A stretch of 64,000 bases of DNA from Escherichia coli (GCF_013315695.1 NZ_CP054353.1), one strand, 5' to 3'; positions 14,868 through 46,575 are shown, counted from the stretch's first letter. The notes: a model not told the origin generated them from the sequence alone. Program-made: numbers and translations.

Positions 14868-14877
14868 GGATGGAGCC

Positions 14878-15219: not shown

Positions 15220-15583
15220 AAATGCAGAAATGGCGCTTAGCTCCGCAATCGGAGAGCAGGTGGCAAAGATTGCTGGTGCTGTGTGGATTCATAACCTTCA
15301 TTCTACTGGTGAAGAGAAAATGGCAATTCAGACGCCAGAGGGACGCACCATTACTACATCTCTGAAGCCGTCAGATGTTTGTGATCTGATTTGCGCATTC
15401 ATGTACCCAGCAATGAGGACTGTCCACGGCGATAAGTGGAAACTTGCGACAACCGCTGAATTTGATATGTGGCTAAACAATGATGGCATGCTGACTGATT
15501 ACGGAATAACCAAGTGGCAGATGCTGGTTAGCCATATCGCAAACGCTATAGACCACGTGGGGTACGGTGATGCGAAACATTGA
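15212..15583 (+). CDS. hypothetical protein
   Basis: 123-aa ORF overlapping both neighbours. Confidence 0.4.
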   Translation: MRENAEMALSSAIGEQVAKIAGAVWIHNLHSTGEEKMAIQTPEGRTITTSLKPSDVCDLICAFMYPAMRTVHGDKWKLATTAEFDMWLNNDGMLTDYGITKWQMLVSHIANAIDHVGYGDAKH

Positions 15584-18326
15584 TCTTATCCGTCAGGTTA
15601 TCAGTGCGTCTGAAAACAACTGGCCTCATGTGCTGGGCTGCCTGAACATAAATGTCCCTGACTCTCCGCGCCGTCATGCTCCCTGCCCTGCATGTGGGGG
15701 CAAAGATCGATTCCGGTTCGATGACAACGGGCGCGGTAGCTTCATCTGTAATCAGTGCGGCGCTGGTGATGGGCTGGATTTAATTAAACGCGTAAATAAC
15801 TGCGACACAACAGAGGCGGCGCTTCTTGCCGCTGATGTTCTGGGTATTGATTACCGGACAACGGAAACACCAGAAGCCACCAGCCAGAAACGGGAACAAC
15901 TGGAAACCGAGCGCCAGCGACGCGAACAGGAGCGCCTGAAAAGGGCAGAGAAGGACGAACAACAAAGACGGGATACGTTTTCCCGTCAGTTTGATGACAT
16001 GCGCAGAAAGGCTGTAAACGGCAAATCTGATTATCTGGTTGCGAAAGGGGTAGGTGATTTTACATTCCCCGTGTTGCCCGATGGATCTCTGTTGCTGGCG
16101 CTGGTGGATAAATCCGGCGCAGTCACAGCAGCACAGACTATTACATCACATGGTGAAAAAAGACTCCTGACAGGTTCAGCAAAGCGGGGGGCATATCACG
16201 CCATAAACGCGCCAGAAACAACACAGAGCATCTTAATCGCAGAAGGGCTGGCAACGGCATTATCTGCCCATTTAATTCGTCCAGAGGCGCTGACAGTGGC
16301 GGCGATTGATGCCGGGAACCTGTTATATGTCGCCCAGGTACTGCGGGATAAATTTCCTTCAGCACAAATCATCATTGCTGCGGATAACGACCACAGCGAA
16401 GGAAGACAAAACACGGGGAGAATAGCAGCAGAAAAAGCAGCTTTATCTGTTTCTGGATGGGTGGCATTACCCCCGACAGATCACAAAGCAGACTGGAATG
16501 ATTACCACCAAAAACACGGCATTAAATGCGCCACAGAAGCGTTCAATAAGTCAATGTACCAACCACAGGGTAATGGCGTGAAACATGAGCCACAGACCAT
16601 TGAGGGAAGCGATTTTAAGGTTATGGATACCGACCCACTGAAACCAAGAATAGAAAGCCGCGAGGATGGTATTTATTGGGTATCTCCGAGAGCTGACAGC
16701 CAGAGTGGAGAAATCATCAATAACGAAAGCTGGTTATGTTCTCCGTTAAGCGTTATCGGTACTGGCAGAGACGATAAAGACCAGTATCTCATTCTTCGCT
16801 GGCTGTCGTTTGGTTCTGAAACGCCGACAACCGCTGCCATTCCACTGGCTGATATTGGTGAACGTGAAGGATGGCGCACACTTAAAGCTGGTGGGGTAAA
16901 TGTCACGACCAAAAGCAGCCTCAGAGCAATACTGGCAGACTGGCTACAACGCAGTGGCTCTCGTGAATTGTGGCGTGTTGCTCATGCCACTGGCTGGCAA
17001 TGCGGAGCGTACATCATGCCTGATGGGGAAATCATCGGAACACCTGAAAATCCTGTGCTGTTCAGCGGGAGAAGCTCAGCCGCAGCCGGATATACCGTCT
17101 CAGGGAGCGCGAAAAGCTGGCGTGATAACGTGGCGCGTCTGGCCTTTGGTAACTATTCAATGATGACCGGGATCGGCGCAGCACTGGCAGCGCCATTGAT
17201 TGGGCTGGTGGGCGCTGACGGGTTCGGCATTCATTTCTATGAGCAGTCGAGCGCAGGTAAGACCACCACGGCAAACGTGGCGAGCAGCTTATACGGCAAC
17301 CCTGATTTACTGCGGCTGACGTGGTACGGAACCGCGCTGGGGCTGGCAAATGAGGCCGCCGCCCACAATGACGGACTAATGCCGCTTGATGAAGTTGGTC
17401 AGGGCGCTGATCCTGTCAGCGTTTCACAGTCTGCCTATGCGTTATTTAACGGTGTAGGGAAACTGCAAGGCGCTAAAGATGGTGGAAACCGGGATCTAAA
17501 ACGCTGGCGTACAGTGGCAATCAGCACCGGAGAAATGGATTTAGAAACATTTATCGCTACTTCCGGGCGAAAAACCAAAGCCGGGCAACTGGTGCGACTG
17601 CTGAATATTCCGTTGAGTAAAGCAGTACGCTTTCACGATTACCAGAACGGAAAACAGCACGCAGACGCACTGAAAGACGCTTACCAGCATCACCACGGCG
17701 CGTCCGGGCGTGAGTGGATTAAATGGCTGGCAGACCACCAGCAACAGGCTATTAAAACCGTTCGTGACTGCGAAAGCAGATGGAGAAGCCTGATCCCATC
17801 CGATTATGGTGAGCAGGTTCACCGTGTAGCCGCGCGATTTGCCATTCTGGAGGCCGCATTGTTGTTAGGCGAGGTTGTAACAGGCTGGGATGCTCAGACA
17901 TGCCGTGATGCGATACAGCACAGCTATAACGCATGGTTGCGCGAGTTCGGCACAGGTAACAAAGAGCATCAGCAGATTATTGAACAAACGGAGGCATTTC
18001 TTAATGCCTATGGGCTTAGCCGTTTTGCACCATTTCCATACAGCCCGGCAGATTTGCCCATCAAAGATTTAGCCGGATACCGTCAGCGTGGAGAACATGA
18101 CGAAAGCCCAATGATTTTCTACACATTCCCGGCCACATTTGAAAAGGAGATCGCATGTGGTTTCAACGCAAAACAGTTTGCTGAAGTGTTGAAAAAAGCC
18201 GGGATGCTAACCCCACCAAACAGCGGTCGTGGATACCAAAGAAAATCACCACGTATTCAGGGACGACAAATAAACGTTTATGTACTCAATTACCAGCCAG
18301 GAGATTATAACTCATCTGAAGAATGA
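15567..18326 (+). CDS. P4-alpha-like primase/helicase (zinc-binding primase domain + Toprim + NTPase)
   Basis: 919-aa ORF; N-terminal zinc motif CPACGGKDRFRFDDNGRGSFICNQCG; acidic Toprim-like stretch IIIAADNDHSEGRQNTG; nucleotide-binding-like motif later; followed by an iteron array. Confidence 0.8.
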   Translation: MMRNIDLIRQVISASENNWPHVLGCLNINVPDSPRRHAPCPACGGKDRFRFDDNGRGSFICNQCGAGDGLDLIKRVNNCDTTEAALLAADVLGIDYRTTETPEATSQKREQLETERQRREQERLKRAEKDEQQRRDTFSRQFDDMRRKAVNGKSDYLVAKGVGDFTFPVLPDGSLLLALVDKSGAVTAAQTITSHGEKRLLTGSAKRGAYHAINAPETTQSILIAEGLATALSAHLIRPEALTVAAIDAGNLLYVAQVLRDKFPSAQIIIAADNDHSEGRQNTGRIAAEKAALSVSGWVALPPTDHKADWNDYHQKHGIKCATEAFNKSMYQPQGNGVKHEPQTIEGSDFKVMDTDPLKPRIESREDGIYWVSPRADSQSGEIINNESWLCSPLSVIGTGRDDKDQYLILRWLSFGSETPTTAAIPLADIGEREGWRTLKAGGVNVTTKSSLRAILADWLQRSGSRELWRVAHATGWQCGAYIMPDGEIIGTPENPVLFSGRSSAAAGYTVSGSAKSWRDNVARLAFGNYSMMTGIGAALAAPLIGLVGADGFGIHFYEQSSAGKTTTANVASSLYGNPDLLRLTWYGTALGLANEAAAHNDGLMPLDEVGQGADPVSVSQSAYALFNGVGKLQGAKDGGNRDLKRWRTVAISTGEMDLETFIATSGRKTKAGQLVRLLNIPLSKAVRFHDYQNGKQHADALKDAYQHHHGASGREWIKWLADHQQQAIKTVRDCESRWRSLIPSDYGEQVHRVAARFAILEAALLLGEVVTGWDAQTCRDAIQHSYNAWLREFGTGNKEHQQIIEQTEAFLNAYGLSRFAPFPYSPADLPIKDLAGYRQRGEHDESPMIFYTFPATFEKEIACGFNAKQFAEVLKKAGMLTPPNSGRGYQRKSPRIQGRQINVYVLNYQPGDYNSSEE

Positions 18327-18351
18327 GCTTCTTCATGTGCGTAGAAAAGGT

Positions 18352-18452
18352 GTTGGTTCAGTTGGTTCAATTTGTAAAGAGTATTGTTTTATAAGGATTT
18401 TATTCTTTTTATTGAACCAACACTGAACCAACAACACGGTATTTTGAACCAA
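18352..18452 (+). repeat. Iteron array 1 (candidate replication origin/crr-like site)
   Basis: GTTGGTTCA x2 direct (18352-18369), AT-rich spacer, then TGAACCAAC x3 inverted (18413-18452). Confidence 0.6.
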
Positions 18453-18774
18453 CACAATGTGACTGAATTGATGCGCACAACACCTGGCTGGCATCAGAGA
18501 GTGTTTTACGAGACTTTCGTAAAATCCTGTGTACAAGGGCGTGACGTTTTTGAAAGTGAGCACTACGAAATTTTCGTAGTTCAGAAAACAGCCTCTGAGA
18601 AGTTGTTATGCCTGTTCAGCAAACCATCCGCATAGCTGATCGCGAATCAAATTACCAATGGAGCCAGAAGCAAGGGCAGAACTGAAAAGCGCCTGCCGTG
18701 AAGAGTAATGCGACACCATAAATATAGTTTTTAGAGTCCATAAAAAACCTGTCAAAACCTGACACACAGAACGA

Positions 18775-18806: not shown

Positions 18807-18901
18807 GTGCTATTTGTTTCATATTTTGCAATTACGATGATGAATATTGCGATTTGTGAAACTATAATAACTGTTGTTTTATACAGTTCTAAGGGGGCGT
18901 T

Positions 18902-19063
18902 ATGGCTATTTCAGTAAAGCCGGTATTGATAAGTGAGAAGCAAATGGAAGCGATAAAGAAAATTCAGGAAGAGCAGCGTAAAAAATCAGGAATTGGAGTA
19001 GCGCCAACTCTGCATGAAATTGCACGAGGGTTAATAGATAAGGCGCTGGCAGGCTGTATGTGA
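18902..19063 (+). CDS. small hypothetical protein (53 aa), possible first gene of the downstream operon
   Basis: ATG at 18902, translation MAISVKPVLISEKQMEAIKKIQEEQRKK...; below the ORF-track size cutoff. Confidence 0.3.
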   Translation: MAISVKPVLISEKQMEAIKKIQEEQRKKSGIGVAPTLHEIARGLIDKALAGCM

Positions 19064-19079
19064 AAATGGATGGCATCGC

Positions 19080-34824: not shown

Positions 34825-34846
34825 AATAATAATTTTCCTTGTAATG

Positions 34847-35799: not shown

Positions 35800-37130
35800 T
35801 AGACTGGCCCCCTGAATCTCCAGACAACCAGTATCACTTATTTAAGTGATAGTCTTAATACTAGTTTTTAGACTAGTCATTGGAGAGCAGATGATTGATG
35901 TCTTAGGACCGGAGAAACGCAGACGGCGTACCACACAGGAAAAGATCGCAATTGTTCAGCAGAGCTTTGAACCGGGGATGACGGTCTCCCTCGTTGCCCG
36001 GCAACATGGTGTAGCAGCCAGCCAGTTATTTCTCTGGCGTAAGCAATACCAGGAAGGAAGTCTTACTGCTGTCGCCGCCGGAGAACAGGTTGTTCCTGCC
36101 TCTGAACTTGCTGCCGCCATGAAGCAGATTAAAGAACTCCAGCGCCTGCTCGGCAAGAAAACGATGGAAAATGAACTCCTCAAAGAAGCCGTTGAATATG
36201 GACGGGCAAAAAAGTGGATAGCGCACGCGCCCTTATTGCCCGGGGATGGGGAGTAAGCTTAGTCAGCCGTTGTCTCCGGGTGTCGCGTGCGCAGTTGCAC
36301 GTCATTCTCAGACGAACCGATGACTGGATGGATGGCCGCCGCAGTCGTCACACTGATGATACGGATGTGCTTCTCCGTATACACCATGTTATCGGAGAGC
36401 TGCCCACGTATGGTTATCGTCGGGTATGGGCGCTGCTTCGCAGACAGGCAGAACTTGATGGTATGCCTGCGATCAATGCCAAACGTGTTTACCGGATCAT
36501 GCGCCAGAATGCGCTGTTGCTTGAGCGAAAACCTGCTGTACCGCCATCGAAACGGGCACATACAGGCAGAGTGGCCGTGAAAGAAAGCAATCAGCGATGG
36601 TGCTCTGACGGGTTCGAGTTCTGCTGTGATAACGGAGAGAGACTGCGTGTCACGTTCGCGCTGGACTGCAGTGATCGTGAGGCACTGCACTGGGCGGTCA
36701 CTACCGGCGGCTTCAACAGTGAAACAGTACAGGACGTCATGCTGGGAGCGGTGGAACGCCGCTTCGGCAACGATCTTCCGTCGTCTCCAGTGGAGTGGCT
36801 GACGGATAATGGTTCATGCTACCGGGCTAATGAAACACGCCAGTTCGCCCGGATGTTGGGACTTGAACCGAAGAACACGGCGGTGCGGAGTCCGGAGAGT
36901 AACGGAATAGCAGAGAGCTTCGTGAAAACGATAAAGCGTGACTACATCAGTATCATGCCCAAACCAGACGGGTTAACGGCAGCAAAGAACCTTGCAGAGG
37001 CGTTCGAGCATTATAACGAATGGCATCCGCATAGTGCGCTGGGTTATCGCTCGCCACGGGAATATCTGCGGCAGCGGGCTTGTAATGGGTTAAGTGATAA
37101 CAGATGTCTGGAAATATAGGGGCAAATCCA
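35800..37130 (+). mobile_element. insCD: IS2 (1331 bp, complete)
   Basis: Ends TAGACTGGCCCCCTGAATCTCC ... GGAAATATAGGGGCAAATCCA; InsC (35891..36256) and InsD (36214..37119) match canonical IS2; no 5-bp target duplication. Confidence 0.95.
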
Positions 37131-37493
37131 TTAACACATAAGCAATCAGTATGATTGGTTAGGTGATTACTCTTACTGCGCACAGCGCAATAGATTTCTT
37201 CGTGGGCGTTACCGCCAACGAAGTTACACGAAGAAAGTAACGCTTTGCTTTCGGTGTGAGCGGAACGGGCCAGCCACGAAGCCCGAAAGGTAGCGGAGTA
37301 AGGCTGCTTGCCAGAGAGTGAAGCTAACGCCGGAAGGCAAAAGATCATATATATAGATATAAAGAATATTATTATTATGATCTAATTAATAATCTAATAT
37401 AGTTTTATTAATAGTCTTATTGTAGTTCACAGTGACCTACCCCCTAGCTCACTATGACCTACCGTTACTACCAATCATCACATAGCACTCACT

Positions 37494-38277
37494 CTGTGTA
37501 ATGCCTTTCTATGTGTGTGCCATAATCCCCTATATTCCCTGTGTAAATCATAGAATATCCCTAACTTATTCCTGTGTAATTCCATACTAAAAATTCAATG
37601 AAAAGTAGCTTAAAAGTGCAATTCTTACTTTCTTCACTTTTACATCACTTTCGCAAATCCTTGTGTAGTGCGGCCTACAGAGCACCATCAGAAATTGTTG
37701 GCTAAAAATTGTTCTGCTTGTTTCTTAACGAGTTTTCTCGTTTGTGCAAATTTTAAAATTTATTTTGTTTTTACAGCCTTATTTCGTGTAATGCGTGGCA
37801 TAGCAAGCCCTTTTCTTGTGTTGTCAAGACATTTGGCAACGTTCAAACATCTGTTTAGAAATGCCAAATTGTTGATCTAACAAATAAACCTGTATAAACA
37901 GAACACCATTTAATCTATTCCCCTGTGTAATCCACTACATCACACAATAAAAACAAAAAAACCTTTAATTATGTTTCATAGCATACAAAAGTCAACAGAA
38001 GCCCTCTCGTGCTCCTACGTAAAAAATCCATCACTTTTCCCCTGATACATCAACTCAAGGCGTTCTATGTGTTCCTTAGTGCATATTACGTTTATTATGT
38101 TAAATTGATTTTGGCCTATATTTTGACCTGCACCCGCATAAACACTGGTTTCATCGCTTACACTCCTTGTGAGACGTGGTGCTGTTTCTAGCATCTGATC
38201 CGACATAAAACCGATCATTCTCGTGTTTAGTGAAAGTTTAGTGAGAGACATTACAGAAAGGCTTTCTGTGTAATGAT
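37494..38277 (+). repeat. Dispersed C(T/C)TGTGTAAT motif family in AT-rich non-coding DNA
   Basis: CTGTGTAAT-like copies at ~37494, 37539, 37572, 37783, 37924, 38269; nearby direct repeat (G/A)TGACCTACC at ~37430-37470. Confidence 0.5.
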
Positions 38278-38424
38278 TTAATAGGTAAAAACGATGTTGA
38301 TTACGCAAGAAAATTCCTTGCTGATATTTGGGGATTCTGGATTTTCCAGATCGGGGGGCGCTGAAAATCGCGTTAAGCACCTCTCGCAATCTAGCCATAA
38401 GGGAAGGGATATAGGTATTTAGAT

Positions 38425-38590
38425 GTATTTATAGCTATTTATGGCTATTTATTTTTTATTTGCCTTTATTTAAAAATAACCTTATAAATCAATAAGATAC
38501 ACAACTATCTGTTTATATTTTAATCAATTAAATCAAGTTTAATACCCTTAAATCACCTGAAAATACCCTTAAATACCCCAATAATTAATT
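38425..38590 (+). repeat. Iteron-like direct repeats
   Basis: TATTTATAGCTATTTATGGCTATTTATT (38425-38452) and ATACCCTTAAAT twice (38541-38584); no ORF over 60 aa in this stretch. Confidence 0.5.
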
Positions 38591-39723
38591 TTAAGGTTTT
38601 CCGTGTTCTCTTCTGCATTATGAAAATGCAAAATAAGGCACAAAACAAGCGCACAGACGCATTAAACACACATCACCTATACATCCCTATACCAAGCAAT
38701 GAAAATAGCGTTAGAATGCGTCCTGTTGCGTTCTGGAGATTTTCAGAAATCCTCTCTAAGCCATTTCAACTCATTAAGGAGTTTTCTTTCTTCGTTCTCT
38801 CTCTGTTTACGCTCTAGCCAGGCTTTTCCTTCTGGCGTAGACAGGAACTTACGAGCGTGAATCTTGCGGTTATTACGTTTGATAGCTGCAATGTTTTTCA
38901 TCGTGTGCCTCTGTATTCATATGAAAATTAACAAGTTACATACTACACAGGGAGACTACGCATAAAACACAATACAAGTAAAGATACATTTTCAAGACAA
39001 TAGGAGCCATAAAGCGCCTTTGATGGGCTACCCCAAAAAATAAGCGCCGTAGGCGTATCCACTAAAAGGGCTTTTTCACAAAAGCTATGAAGTCTTAGCA
39101 GTTCTTCTCTTATCAGGCACCCGTTGTACTCCGGTGGACGAAACCGTGCTAGAGCTTGATTCTTTCCCGATCAAGTTAGGTTTTGAAGAGGTGGGCTTTG
39201 ATCCACTATTGCACTTAAAACTCTTCCCATCATTTAGCCTGTTTATCCTCTGCAACGTCTCACGACGTGTAGCATCATTGGACACCGCGCCAGGTGTGGA
39301 ACATCTTGCTAAGAGTTTTGGTAGAAGGTTTAGAGACGGTGGCACGTCTTCCAGCTTCAAAGGAACTTGTTACGAGGTTGAGCCTGGGAACTACTCGCCC
39401 ATACGTGTTACACTACCAAAGCCCATAACAACGTATAGGCGTTTGTAAGTGATAACAGAAGATACAATTTCTTAGAGAAGTTAAGCTAAGTTATTGATTT
39501 TCTTGATTGTGCGATAATAGGAACAATACACATAGGCGATAAGCTTTGTTTTTGTTGCCTTTTTTATTGTTCATTTTTTATAGATACCCCCAAAAGTACC
39601 CCCATATCTTTTTCCGCCCCTGAAATTTGGTTGTTATTCATACAGCATATCAGGCGGTAACGCTCTCCCTTTAACCCACTTATTGTATGATAGTGCTATC
39701 CCACAATAAGGAATCAGCCAGCC

Positions 39724-40083
39724 ATGAGAATGACCAGCCGCAAAAAAGAGATACTTAGCTACTTTGAACCGGATAACCTCGAATGGGTGACTGGTGAGAT
39801 TGGTGCGCCGCCGTTCGATGTGTCGGGTGTGGCCTACCTGCTTCATGGCATGGTGTCGTTCGATAAGCGTCACCAGCTCGAATCAACCCGGCGCACACTG
39901 GAAAGCATGGTTGCTGGTGGACTGCTTGAGCGGGTGACAGTGTATGAATCGCGCCAGATACGGCGCGGCGGTGATACTAACGCAACGGTCGTGCGCTACG
40001 GTTTACCCGGTCAGTGCGCTGTTATGCGCGATACTGGCGGCGCTGACAACGCAATATCAGGTGAATACATGCGGGTCAGTTAA
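39724..40083 (+). CDS. hypothetical protein
   Basis: 119-aa ORF with normal GC content. Confidence 0.4.
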   Translation: MRMTSRKKEILSYFEPDNLEWVTGEIGAPPFDVSGVAYLLHGMVSFDKRHQLESTRRTLESMVAGGLLERVTVYESRQIRRGGDTNATVVRYGLPGQCAVMRDTGGADNAISGEYMRVS

Positions 40084-40618
40084 TAGCCTGCAATCTGTCG
40101 TTGATGCGGCTCAGGTCGTAAACCCGGCGTTCAATATCCAGCATCAGGAAATTGTGGATCTCGGCCTGCTCAGGATTATCAGACTCTCTGGCCTGTAATA
40201 GCAATTCATTGTAACCATGCAAGCCGCCTGAGTTTTCCGCCGGGGTGGTGCCTTTCCCACGCAGGCAGCTAATGGGCTGATTACTCGTATCGTGTGTTTG
40301 CTTCTCCAGCACAATGACGCAATCCCACCAGTCGCCAAAGTCATACGTGTAAACCAGCTTGTCACCCTCATTCTGGAGCGCCGCCCATAGTGGCGTGATT
40401 GCCGCGTTACCCATGCTTTCATCCTCACCCCATACGCGATACTCGCTACCTGGATCACCTTTACGCCCTTTCTCGAACATATACAGGTGTTCGTCATTCC
40501 AGCCAAAAGCTAACTGGATCACGGCATGAAGTTTACTAAAGGGGATTTGCTCTGGAACCAGCACACGCCGCCATATAGGTGGTTTGCTGTCTCGGATGGT
40601 TATCTTTAGCTGGTACAT
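40076..40618 (-). CDS. pRiA4b ORF-3-like family protein
   Basis: 180-aa ORF MYQLKITIRDSKPPIWRRVLVP...; N-terminal motif recalled as typical of the pRiA4b ORF-3-like (PF07929) family. Confidence 0.5.
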   Translation of the reverse strand: MYQLKITIRDSKPPIWRRVLVPEQIPFSKLHAVIQLAFGWNDEHLYMFEKGRKGDPGSEYRVWGEDESMGNAAITPLWAALQNEGDKLVYTYDFGDWWDCVIVLEKQTHDTSNQPISCLRGKGTTPAENSGGLHGYNELLLQARESDNPEQAEIHNFLMLDIERRVYDLSRINDRLQAIN

Positions 40619-40738
40619 GCAAATCCTGAATAAATGCGAATCGGAAGGATAACGATACTGACGTACTCACAATTCTGTAAAGGTGAATAAAGGAAATTTG
40701 CTTAATACGCATAAGTTACATGTGGAATAATCCCATAT

Positions 40739-40924
40739 CTACCTGCGCGGCGCTGGCTTCTTCCACTGATAGGCAGGTGCTCGCATCATTTCGCGGAACC
40801 TGTCGCGCCGGGCTATATCGGCATTAACTGATCGTTCTATCTCCCGTTGATCTGCCTGTGTAAGCTGGTGGCCTCCGTGCTCAAGTTTGGCGATGGTCAA
40901 TAAGGCTATTTCGCGTGGTGTCAT
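40739..40924 (-). CDS. small hypothetical protein
   Basis: 61-aa ORF. Confidence 0.3.
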   Translation of the reverse strand: MTPREIALLTIAKLEHGGHQLTQADQREIERSVNADIARRDRFREMMRAPAYQWKKPAPRR

Positions 40925-41221
40925 ACGTCATACCCTCTGGAAGAATGAAACACGCCCGGATTAAATTTCATTTTTCGCGGGTATAAAAAAACGATGGGGC
41001 GGGCAGTCCCGGATAGTCAGGGCTGTAGAGATTTGACTACCCCCTCCCCACTGGATTCAGGTTACTGCTATTCCGTTAAGCGCTGCTTACGGGGATAGCT
41101 GCGTTGTGATTTTGACCATTCAGGTCGCCGCTATTTCCTCACCGATTGGGTGCTACGCGCGCGCGTACTTGTCCCGAAATACCAGAAACCGCCAGCCAGA
41201 GGATGATTTCCCTCTGGTGGT

Positions 41222-41503
41222 CTACCTTTGCCTCTTGCCGCCATTTAACCGGAAGGCGTTACCGTTCGGTTGCGCTATCCCCATGCGGTGTTGCGTTTCG
41301 GTAACAGCTTTATGCAGGTCGCCAAATTCCTCAACCTTCACGGGCGGGCGCTTCACGTTCTCCAGACACGTTTCACGGCGGCGCTTTATCCATTCCCGAT
41401 CATCGTCCTCGGTGCATAACAGCATGACTTCCATCCATCGTGCGGCAGCTCTCCGGTATAGCCCTTTTGACTCCAGCTCTTCAGCTTTCCTGTCCCTTAT
41501 CAT
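41222..41503 (-). CDS. PerC-family transcriptional activator
   Basis: 93-aa ORF MIRDRKAEELESKGLYRRAAARWMEVMLLC..., resembles PerC/Pch proteins of prophage islands. Confidence 0.6.
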   Translation of the reverse strand: MIRDRKAEELESKGLYRRAAARWMEVMLLCTEDDDREWIKRRRETCLENVKRPPVKVEEFGDLHKAVTETQHRMGIAQPNGNAFRLNGGKRQR

Positions 41504-41539
41504 TTCTGCCTCTCAGATTATATAGATAAGCAAAAAGGT

Positions 41540-41678
41540 GTTGGTTCAGTTGGTTCAGTTGGTTCAGTTGGTTCAGTTGGTTCAATTTGTAAAGATTGTT
41601 GTTTTTATTGTGTTTTTTCTGAAATATTGAACCAACATCAACTCATTTTGAACCAACACAGCCCAGCTCTGAACCAAC
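41540..41678 (+). repeat. Iteron array 2 (paralog of array 1)
   Basis: GTTGGTTCA x5 tandem (41540-41584), spacer TTCAATTTGTAAAGATTGTTGTTTTTATTG, then TGAACCAAC x3; the spacer aligns with array 1. Confidence 0.65.
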
Positions 41679-41780
41679 AACACAGCGATAGATTTGTGAT
41701 TGGTCCGTTATTTTCTGGCTGATATTTGAGCGTATAACAGTGTTATACAGTGGTATACTGTATGGATATTACTCACTGAT

Positions 41781-42236
41781 ATGGTCTTTGCAATGAGCAA
41801 ATCTAATCTGGTCGCGTTCCGCATCCCATCTGAATTGCAGGATGAGTTTAATCGGTCTGTTCTCGCTTCTGGAGGAGATAAAACCTCCTGGCTTGTTGAT
41901 GCGATTCGCATGAAGCTGGGGCAGCCGGAAAAGTCTATTGATTCACGAATGCTTGGGCTGGTGGAGCGCATGGAAAAAGCCGCTGCGTCGCTTATTGCCG
42001 GAAAGCCGAACATCCCACCAAAACCATATAACGAAACGGCAGTTATAAAGATCATTGCCGATACCATCCAACAGGGATTTGATAATGGGCGTGTGATAGC
42101 TGAACGGATCAATGAAGCAGGCTATCAAACAAAAGCTGGTAAAGCGTGGGATAAAGATATTTACAGCGCGTGGAAGCGTCAGGGAAGCAATGCTGAAAAG
42201 CTAAAAGCAGTGATTGATTGTAAGGTCAGCGTATAA
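41781..42236 (+). CDS. putative ribbon-helix-helix DNA-binding protein adjacent to the iteron array
   Basis: 151-aa ORF; N-terminal SNLVAFRIPSELQDEFNRSVLASGGDKTSWLVDAIRMKL fits an RHH (Arc/MetJ/CopG-like) pattern. Confidence 0.45.
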   Translation: MVFAMSKSNLVAFRIPSELQDEFNRSVLASGGDKTSWLVDAIRMKLGQPEKSIDSRMLGLVERMEKAAASLIAGKPNIPPKPYNETAVIKIIADTIQQGFDNGRVIAERINEAGYQTKAGKAWDKDIYSAWKRQGSNAEKLKAVIDCKVSV

Positions 42237-42315
42237 ACATGAGTGCCCATTGGAAAGTTGCTTGGGCCAATACCTTTATACACCAGCAGGTAGTGACGAT
42301 AGGTGAGGATCAGAT

Positions 42316-42537
42316 ATGAAAGGCAGAACGCCACACATTGAACATCAAGCCAACCACTTCCCTGATGTTCGCAATGAGATGATTGCCATTCGCGGTGATA
42401 TGCACGGATTGGAGCGTCGAATTATTGATAAGATTGATGAAAATAGAGATAAGGCCAGTGAAAATCAAAAGTGGATCATCGGCCTGTTGATTTTATCAAT
42501 TCTTATCCCGCTACTTATCGCATTGGTCACAAAATGA
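42316..42537 (+). CDS. small tail-anchored membrane protein
   Basis: 73-aa ORF with C-terminal hydrophobic helix WIIGLLILSILIPLLIALV. Confidence 0.35.
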   Translation: MKGRTPHIEHQANHFPDVRNEMIAIRGDMHGLERRIIDKIDENRDKASENQKWIIGLLILSILIPLLIALVTK

Positions 42538-43058
42538 ATATCCAATGTGTATGCTGTCGATGCTACGCGCGCGTACTTGTCGCAAAATATCAGGCAAAGG
42601 CCAGATTCAGAAAGTCGTGATAACCACCAGCACAACATGAGAGGTCATGTAACGCGATTTATCACACCAGATACATGTGATTGGTGTACCCGCATAAAAC
42701 ATCGTCATAGCGCGTCCTGTGCGCATATACGCCGATAATCAACACATCACCACCACTCTGTCTCATGTAGAGAACAGTTTTATGGTATCCCCCGCCATCG
42801 TGTGCGTACTGGTCGGACGCAGTTGCAAAAAATTTTGCAACTGATACCCCTCGCGCGCGTACTGGTCACGAAATTGGTGTTTTGCTGTGGCAGTGATATC
42901 AGAAAAATCTTCCTGTTTCACATAAAGCGGATATGCGCGTACTGTAACGGCCCCATCAACTGGGAGCGGACTTGAAATCCCGACCCAAGCTATGTACCAA
43001 ATGCCATGTCTTGGATATATGATGATTGCCATTCTAAACAACGCTAAAGGGGGTTGGT

Positions 43059-43673
43059 GTGAGCAGAAAAGATACTAAAGAATTGCTAACTATCTGCATG
43101 GTGTACTTTTCAATTTATTTTTGTGCATACATGATAGTCCCAGATGAGTTTGAACATGGCAGTATTATTTATTCCATAACATTCTATTTTTTAGAGCTAA
43201 CACCAATTTTGGCTATCCTTTTGGGAATACATATTTATTTTTCCTTAAAAAAAGAATCGACTAATTGGGAGAAGGTATGGAGAGACAGAGGATTTCTAAC
43301 ATCACCTAAAGATGATGCATATGAGAGTGATTTTTCTGACTTTATAACAAACTACTACTCCAGCGAACAATTCAAAAATAGACTGTCTGATGTTTGGGAA
43401 ACAGCAATGTATTCCATAGGGATTATATTATTGATACTTACTGGTATTGCTCAATATGTTTTTAACATTGACTTATCATTAAATCCTGAAAATTTAATAT
43501 CGCCATTGATTTTTGGTGAGATATTGATCTTCTCATTCGGAATTTTCTTGAGTGTTGTTCTCTGCTCATTATGCAAGCTACTGACTAACAGGTATCCGGG
43601 TGAAGCAAGGAGAGCAAGAAAGGCAAATCCATATTATCTTTTATTTCCTAATGGAGACAGCAGAGATATCTAA
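43059..43673 (+). CDS. AT-rich multi-pass membrane protein (candidate exclusion/accessory moron)
   Basis: 204-aa ORF with about four hydrophobic helices, strongly A/T-biased codons, GTG start. Confidence 0.5.
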   Translation: MSRKDTKELLTICMVYFSIYFCAYMIVPDEFEHGSIIYSITFYFLELTPILAILLGIHIYFSLKKESTNWEKVWRDRGFLTSPKDDAYESDFSDFITNYYSSEQFKNRLSDVWETAMYSIGIILLILTGIAQYVFNIDLSLNPENLISPLIFGEILIFSFGIFLSVVLCSLCKLLTNRYPGEARRARKANPYYLLFPNGDSRDI

Positions 43674-43692
43674 GCCATCCATGGCTAACCAG

Positions 43693-45798
43693 TTATTGAG
43701 CTTCTTTTTGTGATGCCTGTGCGACTCTGGTGAGCGATTGTGTGACCGTACTGATCGCTCTGTCATATGCTGTGCTACCTTTTGGCGTATTTGCCAGACG
43801 TAACAAGGCATTTCGTATAACAGGGCTTTCGTATGCCTTCGCTGCTCCGCCTACGGCACCAGCAGCAGGAACAACAAACGCAGCCGTTTTTAGCATCCCC
43901 GCTAATACTGCTGCGTTTATGATGCCACCACCAACTAACAATCCATAAAGCTGCTGACCATTTAAGTTTTGAACGTTCGCTTTTGCCGCGTGTCTTGTAT
44001 CGTTGAGGTATTTAATAACGCCGTCCAGTTCCTTTCCATGTACGCCTTTAAAGAAAGTTGCTGATTGCTTCCTGTTCCGGTGTAACGCATTAATAAACTT
44101 CTCAACACTGATATTTCCAGACGGATCAGTCGCCTTATCTACAGCATTCTGAACTATGGCTGCTCGTGCGTTTTGCCTACCATTGTCATCCAGAAGCCTG
44201 TAAAGCTGAGAACGTTCTGATGGGCTTTGGCTAAAAACGAGTTTTGTTACATCCTCAGGCGTGGCCTTACCGCTGGCTATTGCCTTTTGAACGCGCGTTC
44301 TTCCCATCATGTCATTGAATTTAGACCATGACCGATCAACCCTTGCCATATTAATGGCTTCGTCTGCTCCAAGATTTTTGGCTACGGCTTTTTTCATATC
44401 CGCCGTATATGCCTTGTAGATAATATCGCTGGCTTTCTGGAGCGTATCTTTATCAACAGTGTCAGATGACGCCATAAATCGCTTTCGAAGATCGGTTCTG
44501 TTTTCCCTCGCCAGACGCAGGTCATTTGGTCCGCTGGTGATATCGTCTTTAAATTGCTGCAAGACTTTTACCGCGGCTCTATCCTGAGATTTGCCCGGGC
44601 GGCTTAACACGGCAATCTGATTGTCGATAGCTTTTACCGTGTTTGAGAGATCGACAGGGGTATCCCCCATAGCGTCAATTATGCGGTTATATCGCTTTCC
44701 TGCTGCCTCAATGAATTTTTGTTGCCCTTTAGTCGCAGATTCATAAAGCTGTTTATCAGAAATGCCACCCAGACCATCGCTAAATGTTCTGACTAAATTT
44801 TCTCGTGCTTGTTGTTGATTCAGCCGATTCTTACCGGTTCCAAAAAAAGGAACTCTTTCGCCTAATGTCTGAGCCTGACTCTGCATAAAGGTTTTATCTT
44901 TCAGCATGTCACTGGTCATTAACGGCAGATTTCTTTCCGATGCAAAGTTGACAGCAGCCTTTGCTTCAGGCGACATATCACCACGAACAGCCCTCGAAAC
45001 CGCACTCGCTGTATTTTCCAGCCCCTTACCAATACCACCAATGCCAGCAGAAATTACCGTTTGTAACGGATCAATATCTTCTCCACCAGCAAGGCTGGTG
45101 GCTCCCTGTAGTGCTAAATCTGTAGCTGCTGATTTTCCTATGGCACCAAGCACCGTTCCAGCCCTGCCCGCTGGTGTAAACGCCAGCGCATTAGCCAGAA
45201 ACGATGCCACGTCTTGCGGCGATAAACCCGGCTTGTTCAGAGCATAATCACCGGATGGCAGGGAAACGATAGTGTTACCCTTCTCATCCTGCCTTAATTT
45301 CGCTCCCATGCTCTGAAGAATCTTTTCCTGAGATGCGTCAGAGCCGAAAAGTTGAGACCATCGAGCTTTTAGAGCACCCATGCTGAGTGAGGTTAACTCT
45401 GGGGCAAGGTCGACATTTTGCAGTCTCTCCATCTCTGGAGTCATTCGGCTTTCGCCTGTTATAGCATCGCGCATCGCAGCCCCAAGACTGGCTCCCTGTT
45501 CTGCTGAACGCTCAAGCCCCTCTCTTTGCTGAGTAGCTAACTTTGCATACCCTGACGCAAGAGAATTATCAGATGATGTATGTTGAATATTTTGAGTTGC
45601 TGATTGGGATCGGTCTATTTCATTCGTTGATGGTAGTGGATAGGCAGCATAAAAAGCCTGCTTAGCCTGCGCTACACTTTCTCCGGCTTGCGGGGCCACG
45701 ACTTCATTGAAGTATTGCTCCTGAGCCTGCGCTTTTTGTTCTGGTGCTAACGCCTGATACTGTGGAGAGGCGATAACATCTTTCCATGCTTTAGCCAT
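43693..45798 (-). CDS. large alpha-helical protein, fourth gene of the split coupled operon (possible ejection/internal virion-like)
   Basis: 701-aa ORF; ATG 9 bp from the IS1 copy 3 boundary; the flanking 9 bp is the reverse complement of the duplication at IS1 copy 1; Gly/Ala-rich hydrophobic segment near the C-terminus. Confidence 0.6.
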   Translation of the reverse strand: MAKAWKDVIASPQYQALAPEQKAQAQEQYFNEVVAPQAGESVAQAKQAFYAAYPLPSTNEIDRSQSATQNIQHTSSDNSLASGYAKLATQQREGLERSAEQGASLGAAMRDAITGESRMTPEMERLQNVDLAPELTSLSMGALKARWSQLFGSDASQEKILQSMGAKLRQDEKGNTIVSLPSGDYALNKPGLSPQDVASFLANALAFTPAGRAGTVLGAIGKSAATDLALQGATSLAGGEDIDPLQTVISAGIGGIGKGLENTASAVSRAVRGDMSPEAKAAVNFASERNLPLMTSDMLKDKTFMQSQAQTLGERVPFFGTGKNRLNQQQARENLVRTFSDGLGGISDKQLYESATKGQQKFIEAAGKRYNRIIDAMGDTPVDLSNTVKAIDNQIAVLSRPGKSQDRAAVKVLQQFKDDITSGPNDLRLARENRTDLRKRFMASSDTVDKDTLQKASDIIYKAYTADMKKAVAKNLGADEAINMARVDRSWSKFNDMMGRTRVQKAIASGKATPEDVTKLVFSQSPSERSQLYRLLDDNGRQNARAAIVQNAVDKATDPSGNISVEKFINALHRNRKQSATFFKGVHGKELDGVIKYLNDTRHAAKANVQNLNGQQLYGLLVGGGIINAAVLAGMLKTAAFVVPAAGAVGGAAKAYESPVIRNALLRLANTPKGSTAYDRAISTVTQSLTRVAQASQKEAQ

Positions 45799-45807
45799 TA
45801 ATCACCC

Positions 45808-46575
45808 GGTGATGCTGCCAACTTACTGATTTAGTGTATGATGGTGTTTTTGAGGTGCTCCAGTGGCTTCTGTTTCTATCAGCTGTCCCTCCTGTTCAGC
45901 TACTGACGGGGTGGTGCGTAACGGCAAAAGCACCGCCGGACATCAGCGCTATCTCTGCTCTCACTGCCGTAAAACATGGCAACTGCAGTTCACTTACACC
46001 GCTTCTCAACCCGGTACGCACCAGAAAATCATTGATATGGCCATGAATGGCGTTGGATGCCGGGCAACAGCCCGCATTATGGGCGTTGGCCTCAACACGA
46101 TTTTACGTCACTTAAAAAACTCAGGCCGCAGTCGGTAACCTCGCGCATACAGCCGGGCAGTGACGTCATCGTCTGCGCGGAAATGGACGAACAGTGGGGC
46201 TATGTCGGGGCTAAATCGCGCCAGCGCTGGCTGTTTTACGCGTATGACAGGCTCCGGAAGACGGTTGTTGCGCACGTATTCGGTGAACGCACTATGGCGA
46301 CGCTGGGGCGTCTTATGAGCCTGCTGTCACCCTTTGACGTGGTGATATGGATGACGGATGGCTGGCCGCTGTATGAATCCCGCCTGAAGGGAAAGCTGCA
46401 CGTAATCAGCAAGCGATATACGCAGCGAATTGAGCGGCATAACCTGAATCTGAGGCAGCACCTGGCACGGCTGGGACGGAAGTCGCTGTCGTTCTCAAAA
46501 TCGGTGGAGCTGCATGACAAAGTCATCGGGCATTATCTGAATATAAAACACTATCAATAAGTTGGAGTCATTACC
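45808..46575 (+). mobile_element. insAB: IS1 copy 3 (768 bp, complete)
   Basis: Terminal repeats GGTGATGCTGCCAACTTACTGAT ... ATCAATAAGTTGGAGTCATTACC; InsA 45863..46138, InsB 46057..46560. Confidence 0.97.

What the first reader, a model, noticed from the sequence alone, without database searches (positions are those of the whole stretch)
39724..42738. Accessory cluster around iteron array 2: PerC-like activator, pRiA4b ORF-3-like protein, ribbon-helix-helix protein, tail-anchored small membrane protein
PerC/Pch-type proteins are prophage-encoded activators of virulence regulons in pathogenic E. coli. Here one is transcribed divergently from a putative RHH protein across an iteron array, suggesting the iterons double as an operator. 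The adjacent 180-aa pRiA4b ORF-3-like protein and the 73-aa tail-anchored protein have no established function.
Basis: partly seen in the sequence, partly recalled or inferred. Interest (0 to 1): 0.45.

Follow-up and report, generated by a model that had tools for sequence, protein, structure and literature searches.

The report
Right end of an EcCIMP1-type phage satellite

Summary
Every ORF and the repeat array exist at the stated coordinates. The cluster is not a loose set of accessory genes. It is the attR-proximal end of a thrW-integrated PICI of the EcCIMP1 type (Pick et al. 2025). An IS1-bounded inversion separates it from its integrase-primase half at window 8843-21635.

- **PerC:** intact, and 100% identical to EcCIMP1_025, which that paper found represses LEE1 rather than activating it.
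- **pRiA4b ORF-3:** the assignment holds (Pfam 1e-42).
- **Array 2:** a second copy of the primase-adjacent origin array.
  - A cos site (40952-41050) matches the cohesive-end region of SfV/phiP27/ST64B-type phages.
  - A conserved 61-aa gene sits beside it; its homologue also lies next to a cos site in EcCICFT073.
- **Cassette structure:**
  - RHH, the 73-aa gene and the SieA-like gene form a variable cassette that EcCIMP1 itself lacks.
  - pRiA4b and the 119-aa gene travel as a separate cassette.

Verdict: a new member of a known kind, of modest interest. The testable new points are the SfV-type cos site and the dual origin arrays.

The parts
39513..39522 (-). attR core GATAATAGGA, the reverse complement of TCCTATTATC. 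This is the right boundary of the satellite.
   Evidence: Read directly from the sequence. The same 10-nt core lies in thrW at 8843-8852. PMC11773190 reports TCCTATTATC as the EcCIMP1 att core.
39724..40083 (+). 119-aa protein of unknown function. It is convergent with the pRiA4b gene and overlaps it by 8 nt.
   Evidence: No Pfam, NCBIfam, PHROG, PADLOC or PDB match. It is 99% identical to the EcCIMP1 copy and 91-96% identical in Klebsiella and Raoultella elements.
40076..40618 (-). pRiA4b ORF-3 family (MM3350-like) protein, 180 aa.
   Evidence: PF07929 at 1.2e-42 and PDB 2i1s at 3e-21. It is 100% identical to the EcCIMP1 copy. It is 92-98% identical in Klebsiella/Raoultella satellites whose other genes are only 40-86% identical.
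40739..40924 (-). Conserved 61-aa protein ('o61'), about 30 nt beyond the conserved cos region, on the side where terS lies in the phage.
   Evidence: 115 homologues across Enterobacterales, all unnamed; phrog_7271 at 2e-6. It is homologous to the C-terminus of the last gene of EcCICFT073 (hhalign probability 83%, E 9e-6), which also follows a cos site.
40952..41050 (-). cos site of the SfV/SfII/SfIV/phiP27/ST64B type. The cosN equivalent, GGGGCGGGCA, is at 40996-41005.
   Evidence: BLAST matches fall at the genome ends of these phages and on the annotated phiP27 'cos-site' (phiP27 annotation). The alignment runs across the circularised SfV end junction.
41156..41173 (+). Palindromic motif TACGCGCGCGCGTA(CTTGTC). 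This is one of four copies; the others start at 42566, 42799 and 42852.
   Evidence: Four matches against 0.35 expected. Function unknown.
41222..41503 (-). PerC family protein, 93 aa, intact.
   Evidence: PF06069 at 4e-29 and phrog_994 at 1e-37. The ANR family scores 31.1 bits against a cut-off of 32. It is 100% identical to the single PerC gene of EcCIMP1, which the paper calls EcCIMP1_025.
41540..41678 (.). Iteron array 2: five tandem GTTGGTTCA, a 43-nt spacer of 19% G+C, then three spaced inverted copies.
   Evidence: It has the same architecture and shares its flanking sequence with array 1 (18352-18453), which lies just after the primase gene. Both arrays are also present in L004 and in EcCIMP1.
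41732..41762 (+). Operator/promoter of the RHH gene: overlapping palindromes GTATAAC-AGT-GTTATAC and ATACAGT-GGTAT-ACTGTAT.
   Evidence: The motif is recognisable at about -65 to -30 in about 33 of 37 related loci, even where the flanking DNA is unrelated. The 19-nt core occurs once in the window, and its palindrome gives the only other, opposite-strand match.
41793..42236 (+). 147-aa two-domain DNA-binding protein: an N-terminal ribbon-helix-helix domain (residues 1-45) and a C-terminal helix-turn-helix-like domain (residues 75-147).
42316..42537 (+). 73-aa protein with a single C-terminal transmembrane segment.
   Evidence: Hydropathy analysis. phrog_6324 at 5e-11 and holin phrog_689 at only 3e-3. 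No Pfam hit and no tblastn hit in phage records.
43059..43673 (+). 204-aa membrane protein with a weak SieA-like match. It lies outside the finding and ends the leftward cassette.
   Evidence: phrog_7745 'superinfection exclusion SieA-like' at 4e-4. G+C is 33%. No phage tblastn hit.
15567..18453 (+). TOPRIM/DUF927 primase gene plus iteron array 1. This is the other half of the replication module, now about 23 kb from array 2 because of the inversion.
   Evidence: phrog_1139 at 2e-178; RefSeq annotation; array sequence.

Best explanation
The cluster is the attR-proximal end of an EcCIMP1-type phage-inducible chromosomal island (PICI) integrated in thrW.

**How the element is laid out.** The intact order is: thrW, int, alpA, antA, DUF4222, ash, TOPRIM/DUF927 primase, iteron array 1, then a cargo block. 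The cargo block holds a P22-like gp14/7/20/16 ejection-protein cassette followed by the leftward genes sie204, o73 and RHH. After that come iteron array 2, perC, cos, o61, pRiA4b, the leftward 119-aa gene, and attR. In this window the stretch between two inverted IS1 copies (21636-22405 and 45807-46565) has been inverted. As a result the right end (45806 down to 39513) now lies about 18-24 kb from the left half and is reversed relative to it.

**Shown here**
- The element's identity and boundaries.
- The two paralogous origin-type arrays.
- The cos homology.
- The family assignments.
- The RHH gene's own conserved operator.
- The cassette nature of RHH-o73-sie204 and of pRiA4b-119aa.

**Inferred**
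1. The satellite primase-helicase binds both arrays. Array 1 is the canonical PICI origin, with iterons flanking an AT-rich melting region. Array 2 is a second binding locus, comparable to P4 ori plus crr or to a plasmid control locus. It brackets the cargo, and any perC promoter must lie in it or upstream of it.
2. perC, cos, o61 and pRiA4b are read as one rightward unit. This matches the post-origin position of PerC in EcCICFT073 and in Klebsiella relatives.
3. The cos site lets SfV/phiP27-type (HK97-like terminase) helper phages package the island. The cosB-side sequence is nearly identical to SfV, so no terminase redirection would be needed. A dimer of the 19-20 kb island matches their 37-43 kb genomes.
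4. The RHH protein represses its own promoter through the palindromic operator. It heads an optional cassette, possibly for superinfection exclusion, rather than acting on the iterons.
5. pRiA4b and the 119-aa gene are terminal accessory cargo of unknown function.
For: **Locus and element identity**
- The same locus and gene order occur in E. coli MP1, where EcCIMP1 was defined experimentally.
- The PerC, o61 and pRiA4b proteins are 100% identical to those of EcCIMP1, and the 119-aa protein is 99% identical.
- IS1-free contiguous versions of the element exist in L016 and L017.
- Inverted IS1 copies sit at 21636 and 45807.
- att cores lie at 8843-8852 and 39513-39522.
- A 12,152-bp circular record carries the primase, array 1, a short cargo, RHH, array 2, PerC and int.

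**Iterons**
- There are 13 exact copies against 0.54 expected.
- Both arrays have an AT-rich spacer, the architecture published for Gram-negative PICI origins.
- Both arrays are present in L004 and in EcCIMP1.

**cos site**
- Matches fall at the phage genome termini and on the annotated phiP27 cos-site.
- The cos site is also present in EcCIMP1 at 99% identity.

**PerC position**
- PerC follows the origin, with or without an ssb gene, in EcCICFT073 and in L036.

**o61**
- Its homologue follows a lambda-type cos site in EcCICFT073.

**RHH**
- The operator is conserved regardless of iteron proximity.
- RHH, o73 and sie204 are absent from the functional EcCIMP1.

**pRiA4b cassette**
- pRiA4b and the 119-aa gene are 91-98% identical in satellites whose core genes are only 40-86% identical.
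Against: - No binding, replication, packaging or transcription was measured here.
- The only proven helper of EcCIMP1 is Kapi1, which I recall is a P22-like phage. This rests on my own knowledge and was not checked here. P22-type phages package by the headful mechanism rather than through cos, so the cos site may be unused or a relic.
- No sigma-70 consensus promoter was found for perC. The perfect TATAAT at 41522-41517 is too close to the ATG to leave the Shine-Dalgarno sequence in the transcript.
- o61 homologues in Klebsiella-type satellites are not preceded by this cos type.
- The o61 homologue of EcCICFT073 lies on the cosQ side of its neighbouring cos site, not the cosB side.
- The RHH fold rests on a model of an artificial linked dimer.
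- The element carries four virion ejection-protein genes, which strains the 'no structural genes' criterion for PICIs.
Confidence: 0.75

Rival explanations
1. This is an accessory cluster in which the iteron array doubles as a shared operator for divergent PerC and RHH promoters, and PerC is a prophage-type activator of ler/LEE.
For: The genes are divergent, with the array between the two start codons. PerC family membership is solid. Any perC promoter must lie in or upstream of the array, so primase binding could affect it; this is inference.
Against: - The RHH gene keeps its own conserved palindromic operator/promoter in loci that have no nearby iterons.
- The identical protein repressed LEE1-lux in C. 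rodentium.
- The PerC-like proteins of EcCICFT073 and EcCIEDL933 had no effect on LEE1 fusions, as cited in the paper read.
- PerC occupies a fixed post-origin position in three PICI lineages, which argues for a role in the island's own cycle.
Confidence: 0.2
2. The leftward genes are a remnant of a P22-like prophage immI region. The order gp16, sieA, small ORF, mnt would mean the RHH protein is a Mnt-type repressor captured together with the ejection-protein cassette.
For: - The order gp701 (gp16-like), then leftward SieA-like, 73-aa and RHH genes mirrors the P22 order 16, sieA, mnt. The P22 map is my own knowledge.
- The ejection cassette is clearly P22-like.
- The RHH N-terminus aligns in register with Mnt over 40 columns.
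Against: - RHH, the 73-aa protein and the 204-aa protein have no tblastn hit in 50,697 phage records.
- RHH homologues occur in many satellites without the P22 cassette, next to o61 and the 119-aa gene.
- The protein is 147 aa with an extra HTH domain, unlike the 83-aa Mnt.
Confidence: 0.1
3. RHH and the 73-aa membrane protein, with or without the 204-aa protein, form a toxin-antitoxin or abortive-infection/exclusion module. The RHH protein would be the autoregulating antitoxin and the small membrane protein the effector.
For: - An RHH-first operon with an autoregulatory palindrome is the classic type II antitoxin layout.
- The 73-aa protein is tail-anchored with a weak holin-like PHROG match.
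- The 204-aa protein has a weak SieA-like match.
- EcCIMP1-type islands affect superinfection.
Against: - The RHH gene is far more widespread than the 73-aa gene and is monocistronic in many loci.
- There are no PADLOC hits.
- The superinfection phenotype was measured in EcCIMP1, which lacks all three genes.
Confidence: 0.1
4. Array 2 is a plasmid-like partition site or centromere, and the RHH protein is its ParG/omega-type centromere-binding protein.
For: RHH centromere-binding proteins that recognise tandem short repeats are known; this is my own knowledge. The array and the RHH gene are adjacent here.
Against: - No ParA-type ATPase is encoded in the element.
- The array is identical in motif and architecture to the primase-adjacent origin.
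- The conserved motif upstream of RHH is a different sequence.
- EcCIMP1 has array 2 but no RHH gene.
Confidence: 0.03

Closest known systems
EcCIMP1, the PICI of E. coli MP1 (Pick, Stadel & Raivio, ISME J 2025; PMC11773190; NZ_CP139039)
   Same: - It uses the same integration site (thrW, between proA and yagU) and the same att core.
- The int, alpA, antA, DUF4222, ash and primase left half is 97-100% identical for int1, orf143, antA and the primase, and 86% for ash.
- It carries the same P22-like ejection cassette.
- Its PerC, o61 and pRiA4b proteins are identical, and it has the same cos site and both iteron arrays.
   Different: - Between the cargo and array 2, EcCIMP1 has an o61 paralogue, alpA_1 and other genes in place of RHH, the 73-aa gene and the SieA-like gene.
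- Its gp16-like and gp20-like genes are different alleles.
- It is not split by an IS1 inversion.
- A whole-word search of the paper found no mention of 'cos' or 'iteron'.
EcCICFT073 and the Gram-negative PICIs of Fillol-Salom et al. 2018/2019 (PMC6092414, PMC6739421)
   Same: - The order int, alpA, primase, iteron origin, PerC, then a packaging region with cos is shared.
- The origin is built from two iteron sets around an AT-rich region.
- An o61-family gene sits at the end of the island next to a cos site.
   Different: - The primase belongs to a different family and the iteron sequence differs.
- Its cos sites are lambda-type, with RppA redirecting TerS. Here cos is SfV-type with a conserved cosB side, and no Rpp homologue was found.
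- EcCICFT073 has two cos sites and one origin; this element has one cos site and two origin arrays.
Satellite phage P4 (ori plus crr, both bound by the alpha primase-helicase; the P2 cos site)
   Same: It is a satellite with a primase-helicase, two separated iteron loci and the helper's cos site. This is a resemblance recalled from my own knowledge of P4, supplemented by PMC6092414.
   Different: There are no sid, psu or delta homologues. The primase is of a different type (TOPRIM/DUF927). The cos site belongs to a different phage group. Whether array 2 is required in cis, as crr is, is untested.
P22 immI region (sieA, mnt, arc, ant)
   Same: It has a ribbon-helix-helix regulator with a palindromic operator, downstream of a gp16-like gene and a SieA-like gene on the opposite strand.
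   Different: No detectable sequence homologues exist in phage records. The regulator has an extra HTH domain. There is no arc-ant pair opposite it.

Membership tests
Gram-negative PICI (criteria of Fillol-Salom 2018) | Integrase at one end, next to a specific att site. | tested here: met
   int1 (9025-10239) lies next to thrW (8784-8859). The 10-nt core is repeated at 39513-39522, matching the att core published for EcCIMP1.
Gram-negative PICI (criteria of Fillol-Salom 2018) | alpA-type regulator, then a primase/rep gene followed by an iteron origin with an AT-rich centre. | tested here: met
   An HTH regulator is annotated downstream of int, and the TOPRIM/DUF927 primase is followed by array 1. 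The spacer is 16% G+C.
Gram-negative PICI (criteria of Fillol-Salom 2018) | No phage structural or lysis genes; size of about 10-20 kb. | tested here: inconclusive
   The restored length is about 19.1 kb. There are no capsid, portal, tail, terminase or lysis genes. However, four P22-like virion ejection/pilot protein genes are present.
Gram-negative PICI (criteria of Fillol-Salom 2018) | Helper-dependent excision, replication and transfer. | not testable with these tools
   This was shown for the near-identical EcCIMP1 with phage Kapi1. The copy here is split by an inversion and probably cannot excise as a unit.
PerC family (PF06069) | Full-length match to the family profile. | tested here: met
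   E 4e-29, residues 1-84 against model positions 2-85 of 90. The ORF is intact at 93 aa.
PerC family (PF06069) | Activation of ler/LEE1. | not testable with these tools
   The literature reports that the identical protein represses LEE1-lux in C. rodentium.
pRiA4b ORF-3 / MM3350-like (PF07929) | Profile match and similarity to the solved family member. | tested here: met
   PF07929 at 1.2e-42 and 2i1s at 3e-21 over residues 1-167.
Ribbon-helix-helix superfamily | Match to an RHH sequence profile (Pfam). | tested here: not met
   No RHH family was found at E up to 10, for the protein or for 30 homologues. A profile search against PDB sequences gave no RHH hit.
Ribbon-helix-helix superfamily | A beta-alpha-alpha fold that dimerises through an antiparallel beta ribbon. 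| tested here: met
Ribbon-helix-helix superfamily | Repeated or palindromic operator at its own promoter. | tested here: met
   Overlapping palindromes at 41732-41762 are conserved in about 33 of 37 loci. Binding was not tested.
Iteron-type replication origin | Clustered short direct and inverted repeats around an AT-rich region, next to the initiator gene. | tested here: inconclusive
   The repeats and AT-rich spacer are met for both arrays. Only array 1 adjoins the primase gene. In intact relatives array 2 lies 1.8-8.4 kb away.
cos site of SfV/phiP27/ST64B-type phages | Sequence homology spanning the cohesive-end cleavage site and both flanks. | tested here: met
   Identity is 82-95% over 59-104 nt, with matches at the phage termini. 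The alignment runs across the SfV end junction and the annotated phiP27 cos-site.
cos site of SfV/phiP27/ST64B-type phages | Cleavage and packaging by the helper terminase. | not testable with these tools
   This needs transduction of a plasmid carrying the cos site.
Rpp (redirecting phage packaging) proteins | Sequence similarity to RppA/RppC. | tested here: not met
   Fillol-Salom 2019 report a crystal structure of RppC, so I assumed its sequence is in the PDB copy searched; I did not confirm this. The 147-aa, 180-aa and 119-aa proteins gave no Rpp hit against PDB sequences. o61 shows no similarity to SfV TerS.
RgdR (DUF4222) regulators | Homology to ECs1581/C1493. | tested here: not met
   C1493 is the DUF4222 protein upstream of the CFT073 primase. 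It is unrelated to o61. The window's DUF4222 gene lies in the left half, at 12364-12546.
Known anti-phage defence systems (PADLOC 2023) | Match to any defence-system protein model. | tested here: not met
   There were no hits for any of the ten proteins tested.

The most novel reading that the evidence does not exclude
EcCIMP1-type islands may be two-helper satellites. They would be induced by P22-like phages such as Kapi1, whose ejection proteins they copy. They would be packaged through an SfV/phiP27-type cos site as dimers that fill a 37-43 kb head.

In this reading perC, cos and o61 form the conserved 'late' unit of Gram-negative PICIs. PerC would be a regulator of the island's own life cycle, with its expression gated by primase bound at a second origin array. 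Its effects on LEE would then be cross-talk rather than its purpose.
Probability: 0.2. Interest if true: 0.6.

Novelty: new member of a known kind. Interest (0 to 1): 0.35.

Why it matters
PerC-like genes in E. coli islands are routinely read as virulence regulators. Here PerC sits at a fixed position, after the origin and before a cos site, in three PICI lineages. The identical protein represses LEE rather than activating it. Both points argue for caution about the virulence reading.

The SfV-type cos site gives a concrete, testable prediction about which phages move this widespread island. The cluster matched 680 of the 5,426 complete E. coli genomes searched, at least in part, and 115 of them over at least 80% of its length.

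The dual origin arrays and the two exchangeable cassettes show where such satellites take up new cargo. The result also flags that several small 'plasmids' in public databases are excised satellites.

Tried and rejected
- **Rpp homology.** The 147-, 180- and 119-aa proteins gave no Rpp hit against PDB sequences.
- **o61 as a TerS mimic.** BLASTP against SfV TerS gave nothing.
- **o61 as a truncated RgdR.** Rejected: RgdR/C1493 is the DUF4222 protein upstream of the CFT073 primase and is unrelated.
- **Defence-system models.** PADLOC gave no hits.
- **RNA families.** Rfam at E up to 0.1 over 37000-46000 gave nothing.
- **Profile searches for RHH.** Searches of the RHH family, whole protein and N-terminus alone, against PDB sequences gave only chance hits.
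- **Phage homologues.** tblastn of RHH, the 73-aa protein and the 204-aa protein against phage records gave no match.
- **The 53-aa ORF after array 1.** I tested it as a second RHH related to this one; hhalign gave nothing.
- **perC promoter.** The consensus promoter scan found no candidate.
- **o61 and cos pairing.** I looked for the SfV-type cos site upstream of o61 homologues in Klebsiella-type satellites. It is absent there, so the pairing is not universal.
- **pRiA4b function.** A literature search for a pRiA4b ORF-3 function in phage contexts found nothing useful.

Full report
**What is in the sequence.**
- 119 aa, 39724-40083 (+)
- 180 aa, 40076-40618 (-)
- 93 aa, 41222-41503 (-)
- 151 aa from an upstream ATG, 41781-42236 (+)
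- 73 aa, 42316-42537 (+)

Between the 93-aa and 151-aa genes lie five tandem GTTGGTTCA repeats, a 43-nt spacer of 19% G+C, and three spaced inverted copies (41540-41678). The 9-mer occurs 13 times exactly in the 64-kb window against 0.54 expected, and no shuffle reached 13. All 13 copies fall in this array or in a second one at 18352-18453.

**Family assignments.**
- The 93-aa protein matches PerC (PF06069) at 4e-29 over its whole length. It also falls just under the NCBIfam cut-off for the related ANR family (31.1 bits against 32). It is not a pseudogene.
- The 180-aa protein matches PRiA4_ORF3 (PF07929) at 1.2e-42 and the structural-genomics protein 2i1s at 3e-21.
- The 119-aa and 73-aa proteins match no Pfam family.
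- The 73-aa protein has a single hydrophobic stretch at residues 54-72 and a hydrophilic N-terminus, which fits a tail-anchored topology.

**The RHH question.**
No RHH family appears in Pfam for it or for 30 homologues; only weak HTH_62/Recombinase signals appear in the C-terminal half. Profile searches of PDB sequences also found nothing.
- *The family.* The protein belongs to a well-conserved family of about 143 aa across Enterobacterales (355 hits). The alignment and upstream conservation place the true start at ATG 41793.
- *Monomer model.* An AF2 monomer model leaves residues 1-12 disordered, followed by two helices at low confidence. The C-terminal domain is confident.
- *hhalign.* The N-terminal profile aligns in register with Arc and Mnt, but weakly (E about 1e-3, probability 22-27%).
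- *Conclusion.* I conclude that the N-terminus is probably RHH, on predicted-structure evidence only. The C-terminal domain is a generic HTH-like fold.

**What the region belongs to.** The window is E. coli chromosome around thrW, proA and ykgE.
- *Published island.* A literature search for PerC with AlpA and primase led to Pick, Stadel & Raivio 2025 (PMC11773190). They describe EcCIMP1, a 19,963-bp PICI in thrW between proA and yagU. It has the att core TCCTATTATC and is induced and transferred by phage Kapi1.
- *Gene order in MP1.* The MP1 locus has int, HTH, antA, DUF4222, ash, icd, a TOPRIM/DUF927 primase, a small ORF, DUF2824, ejection proteins, PerC, a 61-aa ORF, pRiA4b ORF-3, a 119-aa ORF and attR.
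- *Identity to the window.* The window's PerC, 61-aa and pRiA4b proteins are 100% identical to those of MP1, and the 119-aa protein is 99% identical.
- *Boundaries.* The att core is in thrW at 8843-8852, and its reverse complement is at 39513-39522, just beyond the 119-aa gene.

The finding is thus the attR-proximal end of an EcCIMP1-type PICI.

**Why the two halves are apart.** The window holds IS1 copies at 21636-22405 (+) and 45807-46565 (-).
- In the IS1-free relatives L016 and L017, the gp20-like gene is followed directly by the gp16-like 701-aa gene. The SieA-like gene (in L017), RHH and PerC follow.
- Inverting the segment between the two IS1 copies restores that order.
- It also restores the K-12-like order of the flanking genes yagU, ykgJ, ecpE-C and ykgM. 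That gene order is my own knowledge, set against the annotation.
- The restored element is about 19.1 kb.

A second island lies between attR and yagU, as in MP1. It carries int2 (32695-34029), a thrW 3' fragment near 32588-32601 and an IS2.

**The iteron arrays.**
- Array 1 sits immediately after the primase stop codon. [quoted passage not shown]
- Array 2 shares this architecture and also the flanking sequence (AAAAGGTGTTGGTTCAG...ATTTGTAAAGA). It is therefore a paralogous copy of the whole origin, not a chance cluster.
- Both arrays are present in EcCIMP1 and in a 12,152-bp circular record that is evidently an excised island. The sequence of that circular record shows the two arrays inverted relative to each other, bracketing the cargo. 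They are in direct orientation in this window, as the IS1 inversion predicts.
- In a Klebsiella-type relative, a single composite array with inverted tandem sets at both ends lies between the primase and ssb-PerC.
- I infer that the primase-helicase binds both arrays and that cargo has been taken up within or beside the origin. The resemblance to P4 ori plus crr is from my own knowledge and is not a tested equivalence.

**The cos site.** Searching phage records with the cluster gave only one kind of hit.
- *Matches.* A stretch of about 100 nt (window 40951-41054) matches the ends of the SfV, SfII, SfIV, SfI and ST64B records and the annotated 'cos-site' of phiP27 (phiP27 annotation).
- *Alignment.* Aligned to the circularised SfV junction, the window sequence runs across the cohesive-end site. 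It is essentially identical to SfV from the cosN equivalent (GGGGCGGGCA, 40996-41005) through the stretch leading to terS. It is more diverged on the other side.
- *Interpretation.* The flanks beyond this stretch are unrelated to the phages. This is the pattern expected of a packaging signal kept by selection, as in other cos-carrying satellites.
- *Relation to the paper.* EcCIMP1 has the same site at 99% identity, and a whole-word search of the paper found no mention of 'cos'.
- *Sizes.* The matching phages have genomes of 35-43.5 kb, and an EcCIMP1 dimer is 39.9 kb.
- *Prediction.* I therefore predict that SfV-type phages package these islands through cos. This is an inference. To my knowledge the one proven helper, Kapi1, is a P22-like phage, and P22-type phages package by the headful mechanism; I did not check this here.

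**The 61-aa gene.**
- It starts about 30 nt beyond the conserved cos stretch, on the side where terS lies in the phage.
- It belongs to a family of 115 unnamed proteins in Enterobacterales and shows no similarity to SfV TerS.
- It is homologous to the C-terminal 50 residues of the last gene of EcCICFT073 (hhalign probability 83%, E 9e-6). That gene starts 76 nt after a lambda-type cosN in that island, next to rppA.
- Two PICI lineages with different cos types therefore keep an o61-family gene next to cos. The orientation relative to cos differs, however, and Klebsiella-type satellites have o61 without this cos type.
- Its function is unknown. In EcCICFT073, only c1503 (rppA) among the tested genes interfered with lambda.
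- I also tested whether o61 could be a truncated RgdR. It is not: RgdR/C1493 is the DUF4222 protein upstream of the CFT073 primase.

**PerC.**
- *Position.* PerC follows the origin, with or without an ssb gene, in EcCIMP1, in EcCICFT073 and in the Klebsiella-type element. This is a fixed position at the head of the post-origin genes.
- *Transcription.* No intrinsic terminator was found between perC and o61, so the two may be co-transcribed through cos.
- *Published phenotype.* The identical protein (EcCIMP1_025) repressed LEE1-lux in C. rodentium in a dose-dependent way, whereas EPEC perC activated it. The PerC-like proteins of EcCICFT073 and EcCIEDL933 were reported to have no effect on LEE1.
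- *Promoter.* No consensus promoter was found for perC. The perfect TATAAT at 41522-41517 is too close to the ATG to leave the Shine-Dalgarno sequence in the transcript. Because the RHH gene starts 290 nt away on the other strand, any perC promoter must lie in or just beyond array 2. Gating by the primase is therefore possible but not shown.

**The RHH gene's own operator.**
- In about 33 of 37 related loci, a motif recognisable as GTATAACAGnGTTATACAGTGGTATACTGTATAG lies about 30-65 nt upstream of the ATG. This holds even where the surrounding DNA is unrelated and no iterons are nearby.
- The motif consists of overlapping palindromes (41732-41762). The 19-nt core occurs once in the window, and its palindrome gives the only other, opposite-strand match.
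- This is the expected autoregulatory operator of an RHH repressor, and it argues against the iterons serving as that operator.

**Which parts are core and which are cargo.**
- EcCIMP1 is a functional PICI, yet it lacks RHH, the 73-aa gene and the 204-aa SieA-like gene. In their place it has an o61 paralogue, alpA_1 and other genes. The leftward RHH cassette is therefore optional.
- It has low G+C (47, 41 and 33%) and no relatives in phage records.
- Its order after the gp16-like gene resembles the P22 order 16, sieA, mnt. I list that resemblance as a rival reading.
- pRiA4b and the 119-aa gene are 91-98% identical in Klebsiella and Raoultella elements whose o61, primase and antA genes are only 40-86% identical. 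They therefore move as a two-gene cassette at the terminal accessory slot.
- There are no PADLOC hits, and no function can be assigned.

**Verdict.** The finding is real, but it is explained by a known kind of element that was described in 2025. Points that are new relative to that description, and testable, are:
- the SfV-type cos site;
- the second origin array;
- the cos-adjacent o61 family shared with EcCICFT073;
- the RHH operator;
- the cassette boundaries.

I rate it a new member of a known kind, with interest 0.35.

Noticed in passing
window 21636-22405, 25139-25897, 45807-46565, 63495-64000: There are four IS1 copies. The inverted pair at 21636 and 45807 bounds an inversion of about 24 kb. 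The inversion splits the satellite and reverses the chromosomal block carrying yagU, ykgJ, ecpE-C and ykgM. Relatives L010 and L011 show other IS1-mediated deletions at the same gp20/gp16 junction.
   Followed up: partly
window 19080-21630 and 43693-45798: The satellite carries a complete P22-like ejection-protein cassette (gp14-, gp7-, gp20- and gp16-like) between its two origin arrays, but no capsid, tail or terminase genes. The 701-aa protein is 67% identical to Escherichia phage N7 and about 33% identical to Sf6. Why a satellite keeps its helper's pilot proteins is unexplained.
   Followed up: partly
window 41156-41173, 42564-42581, 42799-42814, 42852-42867: A GC-alternating palindrome, TACGCGCGCGCGTA followed by CTTGTC or CTGGTC, occurs four times on the same strand against 0.35 expected. 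The first two copies flank the PerC, array 2, RHH and 73-aa segment, and the motif is also present in EcCIMP1. It could be a regulator binding site or a recombination boundary.
   Followed up: no
window 12364-12546: A DUF4222 gene lies in the left half of the satellite. The published LEE/motility regulator RgdR (C1493 of CFT073) turned out to be the DUF4222 protein just upstream of the PICI primase. This island therefore probably carries a short RgdR-family member.
   Followed up: partly
window 18902-19063: A 53-aa ORF lies just after array 1. Its upstream sequence (ACTATAATAACTGTTGTTTTATACAGTT) resembles half-sites of the RHH operator. The protein is not detectably related to the RHH family.
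   Followed up: partly
L004 (NZ_CP148430.1), L003 (NZ_CP146545.1), L005 (CP031370.2): Three circular records of 12-19 kb, deposited as non-mobilisable plasmids of E. coli, Raoultella and Klebsiella, carry int, antA, the primase, iterons and PerC. L003 and L005 also carry o61 and pRiA4b. They look like excised satellites rather than plasmids.
   Followed up: partly
L009 11931-12149 (E. coli MP1): EcCIMP1 has a second, 62%-identical copy of the o61 gene between array 2 and alpA_1. It is not annotated in RefSeq and no SfV-type cos site lies upstream of it.
   Followed up: partly
window 32588-37119: A second, decayed island lies between the satellite's attR and yagU. It contains a thrW 3' fragment, int2, a 'phage baseplate protein', a truncated ORF and IS2. 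About 2.4 kb with no convincing ORFs follows (37120-39512).
   Followed up: no
L017 and L004 versus the window: Two PerC alleles only 54% identical occupy the same slot, each next to a GTTGGTTCA array and an 89-90% identical RHH gene. In L004 the iteron and leader sequence is nearly identical to the window's. This suggests allele replacement with a breakpoint at array 2.
   Followed up: no
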